A stretch of DNA of 64,000 bases from Cyclobacteriaceae bacterium. GTDB taxonomy: Bacteria; Bacteroidota; Bacteroidia; Cytophagales; Cyclobacteriaceae. The stretch is from contig CBDCEM010000002.1 in the NCBI GenBank assembly GCA_965215825.1, positions 1,614,504 to 1,678,503 of the forward strand, given 5' to 3'. Under the pieces are notes generated by a model that did no database searches, was not told where the DNA came from, and saw only the letters and a list, made by a program, of their open reading frames with translations. This document shows, piece by piece, positions 9,460-17,943 of this stretch (position 1 is its first letter; each line of letters opens with the position of its first letter). Position numbers and translations under genes: made by a program.

Positions 9460-12400
9460 TTACTCCGCTTTTTTTCTGCCACCCGAGCTCTTGCGTACAC
9501 TTACTTGTTTAACAGATTTGATCTGTTCTTCGATGGCTCTTAAACTGTCGGCGATATGGTCCATGCCCTCTGCCAATTGCGCGTTTTGCCCATAACCTTT
9601 TTGCTTTTGTTGTTTGGCAAAACGTTCCAAAATTAATTTCCAACGTTGTTGCTCACTGTCAGTCATGCTGTCAGTTAGTAGTTTAAAGCGAAGTAAGTTC
9701 GCTTCCGCATTGGAAGTTAGGGTCTGAGCTTCATTCTCATAATGCGAGTGGATCAAAGTATCTAACTCTTCTTCATTCATCATTGGGAGCAATTTCTCCA
9801 CAATCTTATTCATGTCGCGGTAAGAACCCTGTAATTTAAAGGAAGGCTCAATTCGGTATTCATCGGCCATAGCTGCAGATTCAATATAGAGCAGGTTCAC
9901 CTTTAGTACCACGTCTCTCACCTTCATCATGTGTTTTAGAACAGCAACATATTCCTGCAGCTCTTCAGCTGTATGATTGACTTCAAATTTCAAACCTTCA
10001 CTTGAGCCAGTTTCCGCCATTTTCAATACAGAATGAACATCGTCAAGGCTTCTTGCTGCCAACTTGCTTAATATTGGATTCGAGGTAAGTGAGTTTTCGA
10101 TGTAGCTCAATTTGAAAACTTCTGCCGAATCACCGATTACATCTCCCAGGTTGTACACATCCGCCCGGTTTGAAAGCATATCCGGAATTTGAAATTTATC
10201 TCCACTTTCTGTGTAAGGGTTGCCAGCCATAACCACACAGACCTTTTTGCCTCTGAAATCGTAAGTCTTGGTTTTCCCTTTGTAGACGCCTTCTATCTTT
10301 CGCTGCGCATCGCACATGGAAATGAATTTTTGTAAGAATTCTGGATTGCAATGCTGTATGTCATCCAGATAGATCATAACATTATTGCCCATTTCGAAGG
10401 ATAGATTGAGTTTTTGTAACTCCTCAGCGGACGCGGCATTGGGGGCGTCGGCCGGATCTACAGAAGTCACTTCATGTCCAATGGCAGGACCATTGATTTT
10501 CATGAAGATGACACCCAGTCGACTTGCGATATACTCCATAAGAGTCGTTTTGCCATAACCGGGTGGAGAAACTAGTAATAGCAATCCCATCAAGTCTGTT
10601 CTTTTACCTTCACCAGCTGTGCCAATTTGTTTGGCCAGGTTCGCGCCTATCAAAGGGAAATAGACCTTGTCAATGAGCTTGTTCCTGACGAAGGAGGACA
10701 GGACCCTTGGTTTGAAGCTCTCCAACTTTAGTTCATCACGATAAGTTCTGGTTAATTCTTTCTTGAGCGATTGAAATTCGGAGAACTTTGGAGCAACTTC
10801 CCGGTCATAAGTACTCAATCGTTCGAGGAATTCGTTCAAGTGAAATTGATACTTCCCCTCAGAAATGAGGGAGTGACTTCCTTTTAGCCCGTCAAGTGAA
10901 GCGACTAATGAAATATTGCTGACATACGAAGCATTATGATCCTGGAAGAGTGCGAGGTTTGCGACTTCATAAATCAGTTCCTTGGAGAAAGACTGGTCTT
11001 CATTGAGAAATGCATGTACCCAATGATGTACCATTCGGAGGGCCAGTAAGGGATTGTTTCTGAGCCCACTCAGCGATTGTTTAAATTTCGTTTCGGCCTT
11101 TTTCGTTTTTAGCGATTTTTGAAAAGCCGTAAAGCATTGATCAGCAGCGGCGCTAATGAGAAAGTGATCCTTAGTTGAAAGTTCTTCAAATAGATATCGA
11201 GAAGCTTCAGAAATTATATTTTCAGAAAGGTCAACCGCTATTTGGCTCGCTCTTATTCCTTTTATGAGGTCTCCGATCAATCCTTCAAATTCCCTGGACC
11301 CTGGAAAAACAGATAAAATTATACCGGCTGATTTGATTTGATTGAGCAATGATTGCTGATCTTTTTCGGATATCAATGTGGTCCAATAGAATTTGGCGAG
11401 AGCTCTTGCCTGTCCACTGTACTTCAAAGTACCTGCCGCCCTTGACCTTTCAGCCAAAACATCTAAAATAAGTAGGGTGTCGAACTCATTAATTCCTTTG
11501 ACATACCCTTCTTCATAACGAGAAGTCATTACGGTTTGGATCAGATCTTTCCTGGCTTCTTCATTAAGATTCATGTAGGAACTCAGGTCGTGATCAGCCA
11601 AATTATCGATCATTGTCTGACCTTCGAGCGCCTGAAAAATCAAGTAAGCCAGATATTCCGATCGGTAGACGGCATCATTTTCTGAGATAAGCGTTTGATT
11701 CCAGAAACTACCAAGGTCGAGCAAACTCTCATGAGTAATAGGCTCGAAAAAGTCCGTACCAATTAAGTGGAAATGTGGCGTTTTTTGCTTGACGACCATG
11801 CTAAGGTCGAGGGCAAGATTGTTTGTGAAAAACTTGTGATTGCCCATGCTAATCACATTGTCGCCATCGGCAAAGAGGTCTTGTTGGTCACGAAGCTTTC
11901 TTTGAATTTCTTCTTTGATGGTCTTGAGTTGGCTCAGTAAATCATCGGATTTCACTGTATCCCCACTTTGGACCAACTGATCAGCTATACTTCGGACTTT
12001 CTCAACCATCAGATCGGCAGCAAAGTAGGCATTGATGGCATCCTTGGTTTTCAATGTCCCGGACTTATTGCGGATGGCTCCCATAACTCGTTCAGCGGCT
12101 TGAAACAATTGGTTGGCTTTCTTATTGCGCTGCTCGGTGAGATATAGCTTTCTCGCTTCAAACGCATTATATATTTCTTCGCGTTTGGCTGTGATCACTT
12201 CCAGAAACTCATCGAATTCAGAAAACTTACCTTCCAGTTCCTCTACCTGTACGATCAATTTGGTAAGGTACTCTTCGCATTTTTCCGGAGTGTCACAGAT
12301 GTCGAGGTAATTGGTGACTGATTGTTCCAGGAGTTTAACAGTGGCTGAAAATTCTGCTTTACCCTCAACTGAAAGTAGGGACTTCCTTTTATTGGCTAAG

Positions 12401-14442
12401 GTGGCCTTCACCTGATTGTAAGTGCTATAAATATCGGATATCAGCTCAATGATCCGGGTGGTTTGGGTCGCATCACTGATTTTTAAGTTACTTACTGTGT
12501 CGATTAGCAGGTCCAGTTCCGAAGCTACTTTTTCACCCTCGAGTTTGAGTTCATCCGCTTCTACAACTTTAGAAATTTTTTCAATCTTTTTTTCGAAATC
12601 GGTGACCTTCTCAACGAAGGGTGCGAGTGCATGGTCTTGCATCAGGAACCTAACACAAGACTGGGAAATGATGTCTGATGCTTCTGATAGCTCCCCGTCA
12701 AAAGTCTCCAACCTGGCGACATCCACATATCGCAGGTCTTTGGCACTAATGACTTCTCCGCGAATTTCCCGAACCTCCGCCAACAGGTCCACATACAAGT
12801 TGATATTGCCAAAAGAAGCTTTTGACTTCTTAATTACATCTGATTGTTTACTGGCAAGTTCTGCAACTCTTTTGAGAGAATTCTCTTTGATTTTACGAAC
12901 CTTCTCATATTCATCCACAGCAGATTCTGCCACTTGCCGGATGTCTTTTAGCGGGGTTGCCAGGTTGTACTGCTTCTCCTTTGCCAACCAATGGTAGCTG
13001 TCAATTACATCGGTTGATTTTTTGATTACATCGATGTACAGGTCCGCATAAATTTCTTCTTTATTGACAAGATTGATGATGTCCTGGCATTCGGCCATGG
13101 CTCTCACGACATCTTTGTTCCCTATTTTTTGAAGAAAGGAATCCGTTTTTTCAGTGACTTGAAAGTTGGGTCCGGTGAATGGTGTTTGCCAAATCTGGAT
13201 GGTATGGTGTTTTTTAGGCTCTTCATCTGCCCTGAAAACACACATTTCTCCATTCTCGAAAATGGTAAATCCATGACAGATGATCGGATTCTCTACCTTT
13301 TGTGCAATGATGTTGTAGTTCAGTAGAAGAAAAACACCTTGTGGACGGTTGTAGAAAACGTAGAGGAAATCTTCTCCATTCAATGAGGTAATTCTTCTTT
13401 CGAACAGCATGTCCTGCAGGTTGTAGTCAAACTGTTTGTGTTCCCCTGATTGCAGGTAGTAGCCATTACTGAAAATCAAACCATGGTCATCCGGTAAAAG
13501 GATACAGGAAGAACTGATGGCGTCAATGCGTTTGACTTCCTTAAGTTTTTCGTTGAAAACCAGGTATCGATCTTCCTCTTGATAGGGTTTGGCCTTGATC
13601 AGGATCAGGCTCCCAATCTCCGAAAATCCAAATTCACCATCGGCCAGTGTCTGTTGCTTGTTTTCAACATCCTCGCTGTAAATGCCTTCGCCATCTGCAG
13701 TATTGTCTTCGATTTTGACAGTGAGATCTCCGCCGACAGTTTCTACAAATACCCTGTCCTTGATAGAAATATGTGGATGTTCTCCTTCACGGAAATCCTC
13801 TCTCCGGGTACGAGTCCATTGAAATTCGTGTTGTACGGGAAACTTGTATTCATGGTCACTTCTATTGTCGACATATACGAGCTCGGAGTTTTTCAACTCC
13901 CATTTAAAGGTTTTGATGTCACTGACGTCTTGCCCAATTCGGAAGACCATGTGAAGGAATGGGCCAACTGTTGCAAAACGAAGGAACTGCGTATGTTTGT
14001 AGTATTTATAGAGTTTTTGAAAGTCGTCAAGAAAAACCTGATCCTTCAGTAGATTTTCAAGTGGTAATTCATGAAAAGTTTGATCCTCTCGAAATTCGAA
14101 GTAGCTAAAAACATCTCCGGGTTTTAGTTCGCTTCGAAGGCCCACCAGCACATTATAACCAAATAAGAAATTGTTCCCAATGGCGTGCATATCCCATGGA
14201 ATGCAATTATTTGCTGTCGTAATCCGGTCGGTTGCTAATACCTTCGTTTCAATGGTTCCGAAGACTCGTTTGCGCTCTTCATTAAGTTGAGCAAGGGTAG
14301 ATTGAAGGGACTTGGAATTATTAAGAATGCGATTACGTAACAACTCGTAAGTGCCACCTTCTAATGCATTTTGTGGGTTTTCATCCGCCATAGATCTCTT
14401 CGTCTTTTTCGATAGTGTTTTGTCGTTTTCAGAATTTTGCAA
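9460..14442 (-). CDS. Giant (1660 aa) soluble protein with a central coiled coil and a C-proximal AAA+ ATPase core (MoxR/AAA_5-like)
   Basis: Walker A LLLVSPPGYGKTTL at nt 10540-10572 (reverse-complement), Walker B-like VMIYLDD, and sensor-1 VVMAGNP...PDMLSNRAD typical of AAA_5/MoxR-type modules. No TM helices. About 300 aa of heptad-like E/K/L-rich sequence precede the ATPase. It lies 99 bp downstream of, and co-directional with, a flotillin gene. Confidence 0.7.
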   Translation of the reverse strand: MQNSENDKTLSKKTKRSMADENPQNALEGGTYELLRNRILNNSKSLQSTLAQLNEERKRVFGTIETKVLATDRITTANNCIPWDMHAIGNNFLFGYNVLVGLRSELKPGDVFSYFEFREDQTFHELPLENLLKDQVFLDDFQKLYKYYKHTQFLRFATVGPFLHMVFRIGQDVSDIKTFKWELKNSELVYVDNRSDHEYKFPVQHEFQWTRTRREDFREGEHPHISIKDRVFVETVGGDLTVKIEDNTADGEGIYSEDVENKQQTLADGEFGFSEIGSLILIKAKPYQEEDRYLVFNEKLKEVKRIDAISSSCILLPDDHGLIFSNGYYLQSGEHKQFDYNLQDMLFERRITSLNGEDFLYVFYNRPQGVFLLLNYNIIAQKVENPIICHGFTIFENGEMCVFRADEEPKKHHTIQIWQTPFTGPNFQVTEKTDSFLQKIGNKDVVRAMAECQDIINLVNKEEIYADLYIDVIKKSTDVIDSYHWLAKEKQYNLATPLKDIRQVAESAVDEYEKVRKIKENSLKRVAELASKQSDVIKKSKASFGNINLYVDLLAEVREIRGEVISAKDLRYVDVARLETFDGELSEASDIISQSCVRFLMQDHALAPFVEKVTDFEKKIEKISKVVEADELKLEGEKVASELDLLIDTVSNLKISDATQTTRIIELISDIYSTYNQVKATLANKRKSLLSVEGKAEFSATVKLLEQSVTNYLDICDTPEKCEEYLTKLIVQVEELEGKFSEFDEFLEVITAKREEIYNAFEARKLYLTEQRNKKANQLFQAAERVMGAIRNKSGTLKTKDAINAYFAADLMVEKVRSIADQLVQSGDTVKSDDLLSQLKTIKEEIQRKLRDQQDLFADGDNVISMGNHKFFTNNLALDLSMVVKQKTPHFHLIGTDFFEPITHESLLDLGSFWNQTLISENDAVYRSEYLAYLIFQALEGQTMIDNLADHDLSSYMNLNEEARKDLIQTVMTSRYEEGYVKGINEFDTLLILDVLAERSRAAGTLKYSGQARALAKFYWTTLISEKDQQSLLNQIKSAGIILSVFPGSREFEGLIGDLIKGIRASQIAVDLSENIISEASRYLFEELSTKDHFLISAAADQCFTAFQKSLKTKKAETKFKQSLSGLRNNPLLALRMVHHWVHAFLNEDQSFSKELIYEVANLALFQDHNASYVSNISLVASLDGLKGSHSLISEGKYQFHLNEFLERLSTYDREVAPKFSEFQSLKKELTRTYRDELKLESFKPRVLSSFVRNKLIDKVYFPLIGANLAKQIGTAGEGKRTDLMGLLLLVSPPGYGKTTLMEYIASRLGVIFMKINGPAIGHEVTSVDPADAPNAASAEELQKLNLSFEMGNNVMIYLDDIQHCNPEFLQKFISMCDAQRKIEGVYKGKTKTYDFRGKKVCVVMAGNPYTESGDKFQIPDMLSNRADVYNLGDVIGDSAEVFKLSYIENSLTSNPILSKLAARSLDDVHSVLKMAETGSSEGLKFEVNHTAEELQEYVAVLKHMMKVRDVVLKVNLLYIESAAMADEYRIEPSFKLQGSYRDMNKIVEKLLPMMNEEELDTLIHSHYENEAQTLTSNAEANLLRFKLLTDSMTDSEQQRWKLILERFAKQQKQKGYGQNAQLAEGMDHIADSLRAIEEQIKSVKQVSVRKSSGGRKKAE

Positions 14443-14541: not shown

Positions 14542-16707
14542 TCAAAGACCGAGTGTGCTGGCCTTTTGATCACTTACACCCAACACTTCGGCGATTGTGC
14601 CTAGATGCTTGAGAACCCCTTTGTCCTCGTCACTTCCGGCTTCATTCGCCAGTCTCAATAAGAGTGCTGAAATGCTCAGGTCTTTGATGTCATTCACTGA
14701 TACACCGAATTGACTAATGAATCCCTTTAACTTTTCCTTGAAATTTTGTCCACTACCCGTTTTGAAGAAGGTGTCTTTAACCTGGGTAAGTGTTTCACTG
14801 TTGTCCATCAATTTATCAATGGACTTGCCTTTGGTAATGGACCCAACAATCTGATCAAAGAACATGGTCTCTCCACCAACGATATCGATATTGGCCGCTT
14901 TCAATGCTTCGGCAATTACAGTTGCCTGAGACATGGCAATCTCTTTCTGAATATTGACTTTTGCCAATTCGATCTGACGATCTGTTTCCAATTTCAATTT
15001 GAACTCTTCGTGTGCACGTCCAACTTCATCAAGCACCTGCATGGCTTTAGCTTTTTCTTTAATGCCTTCTGCATCGGCCATTAATTTTTGCTTTAGCACA
15101 TTGGCTTCTGCAAGTCCTTTTTTCTCTTCAGCATCGGCTTTAAGGGAGATTACCTTGGCTTCGGACTGTCCTTGTTCCAGGTTGATCTTCGCTTTCACCT
15201 GCCCCAGCTCTTCATCTGCTTCCGCCTGAGCCAAACCTCTTTCTTTGATGCCCTTAGCTTCTGCCTCGGCCTGAGATTCGATCACTGAAGCCTGAGCCTC
15301 TCCTTCTTTCTCTTTTGCGGCGGCTTTGGCTTCCATTACCTGAGCTTCAGAAAGTCCGATTGCCGCGGCTTCCGCAGCCTGGGCTTCTGATAACGTTTTG
15401 ATGGCCTGGGCCCTGTGGATTGCAGCGCTTTCTTCCGCCTGCGCATCGATCACTGCTTGCTTAGCCAGGTGTTCAGAAGCTTCTTTTTTCGCTTCCGCAT
15501 CCTTGATCTCTCGAACCAGTGCTTCTTCCGCATCTTTCTCCGCCAAAGTAATGGCCACTTTTTTGGTTCGTTCAGCTTGAGCATTAGCCTCTATATCTTT
15601 CATGCGCTCCTTCTCTTCGACTACCGTCTTTTCAATGGTCACGCGTTCACGGATAACATCCTGAATGTTTTTCCGCTCTTCTTCAACCGCCTTCTCTTTT
15701 TCGATTTGTGCGATCTCAACAAATCGTTCTTTCTCTGTTACCTCCAGTTGCCGGGCCCGATCAACCTTTTCCGTTTCTACGGCATTAGTCCGCTCTTTAT
15801 TTTTCGCAGCTACCAGTACTTCACGGAGTTTGTTCTCTTCGGCTACCTGTATTTCTTCTTCAGTGGCGATCCTCGCACGCTCAGCTTTGAGCTTTTCTTC
15901 TTCCTGAATTTTCATGGTTTCGGCCTCTTCCCGCGCCTGAACCACTTCAATTTCTCTCTTTTGTTTAGCCTCCGCTTCTGCTTGTTGTCGCTCGAGTTCG
16001 AGTACGGTTTCTTTTGCTTCTACATCTTGTTTCGTCAGGGTCTTTTCTTTTTCCCGTTCGATGTAGTTGGCTTCCATTTTCTGATCAGCCGTCAACTTGA
16101 TGATCTTCTTGATACCTTCTGCATCTAAAATGTTGCGTTCGTCCAGCTCAGTAATTGGCGTTTGCTCCAGGTAGTCAATGGCACAGTCATCCAGAGCGTA
16201 GCCATTTAGATCGGTACCTATGGCATTTAATATTTCCTTTTTGAAAACATCCCGACTATTATAGAGATCAACGAATTCCATTTGTTTACCCACCGTCTTC
16301 AATGCTTCGGAGAATTTGGCGTCGAATAATAATTCAAGTGATTCTTGATGTGAGGCCCGAGTGCTTCCAATAGATTGAGCCACTTCTTTTACCTCATCTT
16401 CGGTTTGACTGACTCTGACAAAGAAAGTAACTTTGATATCGGCCCGCATGTTGTCCCTGCAGATAAGGCCTTCTTTACCAGTTCGGGAAATTACGATGGT
16501 TTTTAGTGTGATGTCCATCACTTCCAACTTGTGAAGTACAGGGACCACAAACATTCCATTAAATGAAACTTTCGTACCTCCTACGCCTGTTTTGATTAGG
16601 GCTTCCCCTTGAAGGGCTTTGCGATACATTTTGATGATTGCTGATAAAATACCGATAAAAGCAATTGTGATTACCACAGCTATTATCCAAAAAACGGGTC
16701 CTGCCAT
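14542..16707 (-). CDS. Flotillin-like SPFH/band-7 protein (YqiK/FloT-like) with a long E/A/K-rich coiled-coil tail
   Basis: N-terminal TM helix plus an SPFH domain (…GGTKVSFNGMFVVPVLHKLEVMDITLKT…). These are followed by about 350 aa of AEAEAKQKREIEVVQAREEAE-type repeats and a C-terminal flotillin-like region. 721 aa. Confidence 0.8.
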   Translation of the reverse strand: MAGPVFWIIAVVITIAFIGILSAIIKMYRKALQGEALIKTGVGGTKVSFNGMFVVPVLHKLEVMDITLKTIVISRTGKEGLICRDNMRADIKVTFFVRVSQTEDEVKEVAQSIGSTRASHQESLELLFDAKFSEALKTVGKQMEFVDLYNSRDVFKKEILNAIGTDLNGYALDDCAIDYLEQTPITELDERNILDAEGIKKIIKLTADQKMEANYIEREKEKTLTKQDVEAKETVLELERQQAEAEAKQKREIEVVQAREEAETMKIQEEEKLKAERARIATEEEIQVAEENKLREVLVAAKNKERTNAVETEKVDRARQLEVTEKERFVEIAQIEKEKAVEEERKNIQDVIRERVTIEKTVVEEKERMKDIEANAQAERTKKVAITLAEKDAEEALVREIKDAEAKKEASEHLAKQAVIDAQAEESAAIHRAQAIKTLSEAQAAEAAAIGLSEAQVMEAKAAAKEKEGEAQASVIESQAEAEAKGIKERGLAQAEADEELGQVKAKINLEQGQSEAKVISLKADAEEKKGLAEANVLKQKLMADAEGIKEKAKAMQVLDEVGRAHEEFKLKLETDRQIELAKVNIQKEIAMSQATVIAEALKAANIDIVGGETMFFDQIVGSITKGKSIDKLMDNSETLTQVKDTFFKTGSGQNFKEKLKGFISQFGVSVNDIKDLSISALLLRLANEAGSDEDKGVLKHLGTIAEVLGVSDQKASTLGL

Positions 16708-16741: not shown

Positions 16742-17317
16742 TTAAGGTTGTGTGTTAAGTGTGTCTTTTAATTCTTTCAAGTGATGAATGGCCACATCAT
16801 CAAGGGAAAAACCATTCAAATCGACTCCAATGGTTTCCATAATTTCCATTTTCAGCTCATCTACTTTTGACAATAAATCATCCAGATTACTTCGATAGAC
16901 TAACGTTAGAATTGCCTCTTCGAACTTTTTCCCAAAATTTCTTTCTATAAATTCAGGACTGCTCACATCGCCACCTCCAAATGTTTGCGCGACCTCTTTT
17001 ACGTCATCTTCCGTCTGATTGATCCTAAGGTAGAATAAGACTTCTATTTCCAGTTTTCGACCGTCTTTGGTTAAAATTGCGTCATCGTTTCGTCTGCTTA
17101 CTTCATAGGACTTTATTGTTATGTCCAGTCGCTCCAGGTGATGAATAACTGGTGTCACAAACATTCCACTGAATGAAACCTTAGTACCTCCAATTCCTGA
17201 CCTGACTAGCGCTTCACCTTGTTTGGCCTTTTGATACATTTTGATGATCGCTGACATTAAGCCGATCATGACTGTCATGGCTACGAATACTACGATATAA
17301 TAGATAGGACCTGCCAC
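16742..17317 (-). CDS. Short SPFH-domain protein (paralogue of the flotillin N-terminus)
   Basis: 191 aa. Residues 1-115 align almost position-for-position with the N-terminus of the 721-aa flotillin (MAGPIYYIV…GGTKVSFSGMFVTPVIHHLERLDITIK… against MAGPVFWII…GGTKVSFNGMFVVPVLHKLEVMDITLK…). Confidence 0.7.
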   Translation of the reverse strand: MAGPIYYIVVFVAMTVMIGLMSAIIKMYQKAKQGEALVRSGIGGTKVSFSGMFVTPVIHHLERLDITIKSYEVSRRNDDAILTKDGRKLEIEVLFYLRINQTEDDVKEVAQTFGGGDVSSPEFIERNFGKKFEEAILTLVYRSNLDDLLSKVDELKMEIMETIGVDLNGFSLDDVAIHHLKELKDTLNTQP

Positions 17318-17943
17318 TATGCGTATGGTTCTACGTAATAAAATTTTTCTACCTCATTTTGTTCGATCACCAGGCCTTTTTCTCCTTTAGCAATGGTTAA
17401 TCCGTTTCGGGTTTTGGCATTGATCAATACCGAAGTTCCATTCACTTTAATCTCTGCCTGGCTCAATGAACTGTCGGAAATAGGCAGTTTTGCAATGCAC
17501 AATTGACCTACTATATATTTCACCGCTTCTGTATCTTGACGAATTTTTCTATAAAATTTAGCAATAGGGATAGTTAGAAATTTCGCGACAAACAGGCTTC
17601 CAATAAACAATGGAACAAATGTGATCAATCCGGGCAAAAGACTTTGAATGCCAAAGAAATCGTTGACTAATATGGTGGATACCCACAGGGGCAATGAGAA
17701 GAAAGTGATGAATATCATCAAAGGCATGTGCCCAATATTGAAGAAGGATAATACCGATGCAAGCCCCCCAATTTCAACCTCGACATCCATATCCGCGTCA
17801 ACGTCCAGGTCCAAATCTACGTCCACGGTATCTACATCTATAACTCCCAGAATTACTATTAACCAGTAGATAATGACAAAAATCATGAGAACCGTAGGTA
17901 TTACGTTGATCCCAGTAATTGAAAAATCCAAGAGTTCAAGCAT
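17317..17943 (-). CDS. NfeD/YqiJ-like membrane protein (flotillin-associated)
   Basis: 208 aa. It has an N-terminal TM pair, an unusual acidic DVDTVDVDLDLDVDADMDVEVE tract, two more TM helices and a C-terminal soluble beta-rich domain. Its stop overlaps the start of the next SPFH gene, giving the classic NfeD-SPFH operon logic (compare yqiJ-yqiK). Confidence 0.55.
   Translation of the reverse strand: MLELLDFSITGINVIPTVLMIFVIIYWLIVILGVIDVDTVDVDLDLDVDADMDVEVEIGGLASVLSFFNIGHMPLMIFITFFSLPLWVSTILVNDFFGIQSLLPGLITFVPLFIGSLFVAKFLTIPIAKFYRKIRQDTEAVKYIVGQLCIAKLPISDSSLSQAEIKVNGTSVLINAKTRNGLTIAKGEKGLVIEQNEVEKFYYVEPYA

What the first reader, a model, noticed from the sequence alone, without database searches (positions are those of the whole stretch)
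9460..14442. Unusual architecture of the 1660-aa protein: about 1000 aa of N-terminal unassigned domain, about 300 aa of coiled coil, then a lone AAA+ core
Only one P-loop is visible in 1660 aa (LLLVSPPGYGKTTL at nt 10540-10572, with Walker B VMIYLDD and sensor-1 VVMAGNP). This is a single AAA_5/MoxR-like module, not an SMC, dynein or midasin-type multi-AAA arrangement. The N-terminal kilobase has no motif I recognise. There are no TM segments.
Basis: seen in the sequence. Interest (0 to 1): 0.6.

Follow-up and report, generated by a model that had tools for sequence, protein, structure and literature searches.

The report
Flotillin-linked giant AAA+ ATPase, misnamed
This large gene encodes a soluble ATPase, widespread in bacteria and labelled "DNA repair ATPase" in databases without visible support, that is almost always encoded next to membrane-scaffold (flotillin-type) genes and so probably acts on the cell membrane; the gene cluster was already described by computer analysis in 2024 but has never been tested experimentally.

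Summary
The ORF is real (window 9460-14442, minus strand). The likely start is the ATG at 14391, giving 1643 aa. The N-terminus is Pfam DUF3686 (E=2e-184), which an AlphaFold model shows as a beta-propeller. Next comes about 420 aa of spectrin-like three-helix repeats (including DUF7902), then a small beta domain, a globular helical domain, the AAA+ core and C-terminal helices.

The family has more than 4000 members in at least nine phyla and is named "DNA repair ATPase"; I found no evidence for that name. In 66 of 69 genome loci the gene lies directly downstream of a flotillin-like SPFH gene, usually preceded by a YqiJ/NfeD-like membrane gene. The reverse holds in 64 of 64 metagenome loci. 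In 21 Bacteroidota loci, PspA and a CesT/YbjN-like gene are part of the cluster.

Ravi et al. 2024 (mSystems) already described this operon in silico. The window holds an abbreviated version of it, plus a truncated SPFH duplicate.

Most likely function (inferred): ATP-driven remodelling of flotillin/PspA assemblies under the membrane.

The parts
9460..14391 (-). Gene for the giant AAA+ ATPase (1643 aa from the ATG at 14391; the mechanical ORF extends to a TTG at 14442)
   Evidence: ORF list and translation. Relatives at 82-90% identity are 1640-1643 aa and start MA(D/E)E....
14245..14391 (-). N-terminal segment with a ~30-residue helix (aa 31-61)
   Evidence: AlphaFold model, helix at fragment residues 14-44, pLDDT ~90.
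13186..14244 (-). All-beta domain, aa 67-419; beta-propeller, the core of Pfam DUF3686
   Evidence: Pfam DUF3686 aa 46-484, E=2.4e-184. About 27 strands in the model. Foldseek matches beta-propellers (YncE, CyRPA, LGI1-EPTP, IFT-A WD40) at prob ~1.0, E 1e-4 to 3e-7.
11875..13137 (-). Rod of long helices, aa 436-856; spectrin-like three-helix-bundle repeats. DUF7902 is aa 604-688 (nt 12379-12633).
11740..11856 (-). Small beta domain, aa 863-901
   Evidence: Seen in both independent models: fragment 1 strands 846-876 and fragment 2 strands 4-42.
10945..11730 (-). Globular all-helical domain, aa 905-1166; no family assignment
   Evidence: Model pLDDT >90, helices of 10-25 residues. No Pfam hit at E<=5.
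10582..10944 (-). Pre-AAA linker, aa 1167-1287; short beta elements, a 37-residue helix, and the conserved FVRNxLIxxVYLPLIG segment
   Evidence: Model. Invariant columns in the family alignments.
10153..10581 (-). AAA+ alpha/beta core, aa 1288-1430. Walker A SPPGYGKTT (nt 10540-10581), Walker B YLDDIQH (nt 10360-10380), beta-hairpin aa 1382-1395, sensor-1 MAGNP (nt 10216-10236), candidate Arg finger in PDMLSNRAD.
   Evidence: Pfam AAA E=6.5e-7 and AAA_5 E=1.2e-5, both above cutoff. Model strand order. Foldseek to NorQ, CbbQ, RuvB and MCM. Motif invariance.
10003..10152 (-). AAA+ lid (small helical subdomain), aa 1431-1480
   Evidence: Model helices at fragment residues 581-619.
9463..10002 (-). 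C-terminal long helices, aa 1481-1660; contains the invariant EPxFxLQGSYRNM motif (sensor-2-like). The last ~15 residues are disordered.
   Evidence: Model. Invariant columns.
14542..16707 (-). Partner gene: flotillin-like SPFH protein, 721 aa. It has an N-terminal TM, a Band 7 domain, a long Glu/Ala/Lys-rich helical region and a conserved C-terminal domain.
   Evidence: Band_7 E=3.3e-12 on aa 1-200. TM at aa 1-29. The family profile hits QmcA, PDB 8z5g. Directly upstream and co-directional in 66/69 genome loci. The ATPase lies downstream of it in 64/64 metagenome loci.
17317..17943 (-). Partner gene: YqiJ/NfeD-like multi-TM membrane protein, 208 aa
   Evidence: Pfam YqiJ_N E=1.1e-3, below cutoff. 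Several hydrophobic segments. A homologue is detectable upstream of the flotillin gene in 52/65 loci. Matches the 'YqiJ/YuaF 3TM' component of Ravi et al..
16742..17317 (-). Extra ORF: truncated SPFH paralogue, 191 aa (TM plus Band 7 only), between the NfeD-like and flotillin-like genes
   Evidence: Band_7 E=2.2e-14. 48% identical to aa 1-182 of the 721-aa gene. Absent from the 90%-identical relative L001. Among 147 loci with a hit, only the window and one other (L164) showed two separate SPFH N-domain hits.

Best explanation
The gene encodes the soluble ATPase subunit of a conserved three-gene membrane module. The module is a YqiJ/NfeD-like multi-TM protein, a flotillin-like SPFH scaffold, and this DUF3686/DUF7902/AAA+ giant. 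The window carries the 'abbreviated' form of the PspA-associated operon described in silico by Ravi et al. 2024.

Shown here: family membership; the domain anatomy (beta-propeller, spectrin-like rod, small beta domain, helical domain, one MoxR-like AAA+ module, C-terminal helices); cytoplasmic location (no TM or signal sequence); and near-obligate gene linkage to the flotillin-like partner across phyla.

Inferred mechanism: the AAA+ modules oligomerise into a ring, as related AAA+ proteins do. The rods then project the beta-propellers outward, where they dock onto the cytoplasmic flotillin/NfeD cage and, where it is encoded, onto PspA polymers. ATP binding and hydrolysis then drive assembly, disassembly or reshaping of these submembrane scaffolds during envelope stress. 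This would be analogous to Vps4 acting on ESCRT-III, or MoxR ATPases acting on their partners.

The database name 'DNA repair ATPase' is not supported by anything seen here.
For: Family and anatomy:
- DUF3686 E=2.4e-184, DUF7902 E=9e-26, and AAA/AAA_5 above cutoff.
- More than 4000 homologues with the same Pfam set and length.
- About 900 clusters at 50% identity keep a 1600-1900 aa length down to 27% identity.
- Confident models: pLDDT 86.6 and 88.7.

Linkage:
- A flotillin-like gene lies directly upstream on the same strand in 66/69 loci from Bacteroidota, Planctomycetota, Verrucomicrobiota, Desulfobacterota, Clostridia, Lentisphaerota and Kiritimatiellota.
- The same triad occurs in Streptomyces scabiei, a betaproteobacterium and an environmental clade. 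The partners there are 43-44% identical to the window's.
- Reverse test: 64/64.
- A colinear XRE-HTH | CesT/YbjN-like, PspA, NfeD-like, flotillin-like, ATPase cluster occurs in 21/83 loci.
- Ravi et al. 2024 describe the same operon independently, including the PLD gene that I also saw in L086.

Topology: the ATPase has no TM, the flotillin-like protein has one N-terminal TM, and the NfeD-like protein has several.

Established knowledge (from memory and cited papers): SPFH proteins form large membrane cages and pair with AAA+ enzymes, as in HflK/C-FtsH and QmcA-YbbJ (reviewed in PMC13086221).
Against: - No experiment exists on any family member. I found no paper mentioning DUF3686, DUF7902 or PF12458.
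- Gene linkage shows a functional association. It does not show that the flotillin cage is the substrate.
- Ring formation, propeller-flotillin contact and ATP hydrolysis are all untested.
- The Walker B is an invariant Asp-Asp rather than Asp-Glu (296/307). This may mean slow, switch-like hydrolysis rather than a power-stroke motor.
- The segment between b2 and helix 2, where pore loops would sit, has no conserved aromatic residue. That argues against a threading unfoldase.
- Three loci have the ATPase without an adjacent flotillin gene (L021, L030, L042).
- PspA is adjacent in only about a quarter of loci and is absent from this window.
Confidence: 0.6

Rival explanations
1. Client-directed chaperone or extractase. 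The flotillin/NfeD microdomain is only the platform that recruits the ATPase. The ATPase then remodels, extracts or assembles other membrane-associated client proteins, comparable to FtsH within HflK/C cages or p97 with erlins, or to MoxR ATPases maturing a specific enzyme.
For: The same linkage data fit this reading. MoxR-type relatives (NorQ, CbbQ) act on specific client enzymes (descriptions). Ravi et al. interpret band-7, CesT and AAA+ partners as chaperone-like assembly factors. S. aureus FloA-NfeD is reported to stabilise unfolded proteins (PMC11222466 abstract; cited).
Against: No recurrent client gene, protease domain or vWA adaptor appears in 83 loci. Only the scaffold genes, PspA, a CesT-like gene and a regulator recur. 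No aromatic pore-loop motif is conserved.
Confidence: 0.22
2. Nucleotide-switch membrane skeleton. The protein is mainly structural. A spectrin-like rod with a propeller tip and an oligomerising AAA+ hub would form a submembrane lattice linked to flotillin cages, and ATP would act as an assembly switch rather than as fuel.
For: Spectrin-repeat-like rod. Invariant Asp-Asp Walker B and a Ser in place of the first Walker A Gly. From memory, DnaA-type switch ATPases also carry 'DDIQ'.
Against: Sensor-1, the Arg-finger-like motif and the sensor-2-like motif are all invariant, which is what one expects of an active hydrolase. There is no evidence for lattice formation.
Confidence: 0.1
3. Anti-phage or conflict system that uses membrane disruption, with the AAA+ protein as sensor or effector.
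For: Identity does not track phylogeny well, which suggests horizontal transfer: Planctomycetota proteins are ~51% identical to the Cytophagales query, similar to Flavobacteriia. The Pontibacter locus is next to an integrase, group II introns and IS elements. A PLD gene is present in some loci.
Against: PADLOC gave no meaningful hit for any of the genes. Flanks differ between taxa and are mostly housekeeping, and the window's flanks are syntenic with those of its 90% relative. The association with PspA points to stress protection.
Confidence: 0.05
4. A DNA repair ATPase, as annotated (SMC/Rad50/RecN-like).
For: Only the database names 'DNA repair ATPase' and 'ATPase involved in DNA repair'.
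Against: The ATPase is an AAA+ module, not an ABC-type head split by a coiled coil. No nuclease or DNA-binding partner recurs in the neighbourhood. The partners are membrane proteins. The only DNA-enzyme similarity is a generic P-loop match to RuvB, far below the family cutoffs (23 bits against 282).
Confidence: 0.03

Closest known systems
The 'beta-propeller + coiled-coil + AAA+ ATPase' of the CesT/Tir-PspA-band-7/flotillin-YqiJ/YuaF operon (Ravi et al. 2024, mSystems 9:e00847-23; example neighbourhood of ANH61663.1, Dokdonia donghaensis)
   Same: [quoted passage not shown] The extended PspA/CesT/cHTH form was recovered here in 21 Bacteroidota loci, and the PLD variant in a betaproteobacterium.
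   Different: The window has the abbreviated form, with no PspA, CesT-like gene or cHTH regulator anywhere in its 64 kb. It also has an extra truncated SPFH paralogue. The paper gives no structure, AAA+ clade or quantified linkage; those are added here.
MoxR-family AAA+ ATPases (NorQ, CbbQ, RavA)
   Same: One AAA+ module. A hairpin before sensor-1. The post-Walker-B motif layout. Best target-normalised structural matches (NorQ TMt 0.54-0.60, CbbQ 0.51). AAA_5 above the Pfam cutoff.
   Different: About 1270 aa of N-terminal domains that no MoxR protein has. No vWA/MIDAS partner. Walker B is Asp-Asp. No beta-hairpin helix-2 insert in the model. Sequence profiles reach solved AAA+ proteins only over the Walker A segment.
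SPFH cage plus AAA+ enzyme pairs (HflK/C-FtsH; QmcA/YbbK-YbbJ with FtsH; prohibitin with m-AAA protease)
   Same: An SPFH scaffold that is functionally and genetically coupled to an AAA+ ATPase, with an NfeD-type partner.
   Different: This ATPase is soluble. It has no protease domain and no TM anchor. [quoted passage not shown]
Vps4/CdvC acting on ESCRT-III (PspA/Vipp1 are ESCRT-III homologues)
   Same: An AAA+ ATPase genetically associated with a membrane-remodelling polymer (PspA in about a quarter of loci). The proposed logic is ATP-driven scaffold turnover.
   Different: No MIT domain. Not a classical-clade AAA on structural grounds (hairpin before sensor-1). The primary linkage is to flotillin, not to PspA.

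Membership tests
Pfam DUF3686/DUF7902/AAA+ giants ('DNA repair ATPase' in NCBI naming) | Full-length DUF3686 match at the N-terminus | tested here: met
   E=2.4e-184, profile positions 2-448 of 448.
Pfam DUF3686/DUF7902/AAA+ giants ('DNA repair ATPase' in NCBI naming) | DUF7902 in the helical region, a C-terminal AAA+ module and a length of ~1600-1900 aa | tested here: met
   DUF7902 E=9e-26 and AAA E=6.5e-7. Homologues of 1570-1930 aa with the same Pfam set.
PspA-associated band-7/flotillin-YqiJ-AAA+ operon (Ravi et al. 2024) | [quoted passage not shown] | tested here: met
   Window 14542-16707. Band_7 E=3.3e-12. 66/69 and 64/64 linkage.
PspA-associated band-7/flotillin-YqiJ-AAA+ operon (Ravi et al. 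2024) | Adjacent YqiJ/YuaF-type multi-TM gene | tested here: met
   Window 17317-17943. The YqiJ_N hit is weak (E=1.1e-3) but the protein is multi-TM and conserved in position.
PspA-associated band-7/flotillin-YqiJ-AAA+ operon (Ravi et al. 2024) | CesT/Tir-PspA dyad in the operon (full form) | tested here: not met
   No PspA, CesT/YbjN-like or cHTH homologue in the window. The window therefore has the 'abbreviated operon' that the paper also describes.
MoxR / AAA_5 (helix-2-insert clade AAA+) | Beta-hairpin inserted before the sensor-1 strand | tested here: met
   Model strands at aa 1382-1395, between the Walker B strand (1355-1360) and the sensor-1 strand (1401-1407). This rests on the model only.
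MoxR / AAA_5 (helix-2-insert clade AAA+) | Beta-hairpin insert in helix 2 | tested here: inconclusive
   An 18-residue conserved loop lies between b2 and helix 2, with no hairpin in the DSSP assignment of the model.
MoxR / AAA_5 (helix-2-insert clade AAA+) | Sequence match specific to AAA_5 rather than generic AAA | tested here: inconclusive
   All 11 divergent members hit PF00004 (best 3.9e-9) and PF07728 (best 4.5e-8) about equally.
MoxR / AAA_5 (helix-2-insert clade AAA+) | vWA/MIDAS partner protein encoded nearby | tested here: not met
   None among the window neighbours. None among the recurrent gene clusters of 83 loci.
MoxR / AAA_5 (helix-2-insert clade AAA+) | Canonical Walker B hhhhDE | tested here: not met
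   YLDDIQH; Asp-Asp in 296/307 family members.
SMC/Rad50/RecN-type DNA repair ATPases | ABC-type ATPase head split by an antiparallel coiled coil, with nuclease or kleisin partners | tested here: not met
   One contiguous AAA+ fold. No SMC_N or ABC hit. No such neighbours.
FtsH-type AAA+ proteases that work with SPFH cages | TM anchor and a C-terminal M41 protease domain | tested here: not met
   No TM. No peptidase hit at E<=5 in the C-terminal 246 aa.

The most novel reading that the evidence does not exclude
The protein is the first dedicated ATP-driven remodelling motor for bacterial flotillin cages and, where it is co-encoded, for the ESCRT-III homologue PspA. A hexameric hub would carry six spectrin-like arms whose propeller tips grip the cage and open, close or recycle it. 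It would be a bacterial functional counterpart of Vps4 or NSF for SPFH microdomains.
Probability: 0.3. Interest if true: 0.8.

Novelty: new member of a known kind. Interest (0 to 1): 0.4.

Why it matters
What bacterial flotillins and PspA-type scaffolds actually do, and how their assemblies are turned over, is still unresolved. A large ATPase that is almost obligately co-encoded with one flotillin subfamily offers a direct experimental handle on that question. It occurs in hundreds of species, including tractable Streptomyces and Flavobacteriia.

In practical terms, thousands of database entries named "DNA repair ATPase" are probably misnamed and should not be used to infer DNA-repair capacity.

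For this scan, the finding is a correct sighting of a published but experimentally untouched system. It is not a new kind of element.

Tried and rejected
- Second or degenerate AAA modules. I scanned each inter-domain segment separately against Pfam at E<=5 and inspected both models. None was found.
- PADLOC defence models for all nine local genes. Only noise came back (mads8 at E=0.008).
- NCBIfam. Only sub-threshold RuvB P-loop matches.
- PDB sequence searches with the single sequence and with a family profile. Only the Walker A segment aligns (Rix7, p97, NVL, midasin, RuvB), so no solved homologue exists.
- Literature searches for DUF3686, DUF7902, PF12458, flotillin + AAA+ + Streptomyces, and MoxR + SPFH gave nothing relevant. 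Hinderhofer et al. 2009 on prokaryotic SPFH operons does not mention the ATPase.
- Pfam on the full-length 721-aa partner returned nothing. The N-terminal 200 aa alone hits Band_7, so the full-length result is a false negative. I attribute it to the composition filter, but did not test that.
- The promoter/terminator scan was no better than shuffled sequence. It is not informative for a Bacteroidota genome.
- I suspected the truncated SPFH paralogue was recurrent because of a short ORF in L009. A direct search found two separate SPFH N-domain hits only in the window and L164 among 147 loci.
- The three loci without an upstream flotillin gene (L021, L030, L042) show unrelated neighbours and no alternative SPFH partner nearby.
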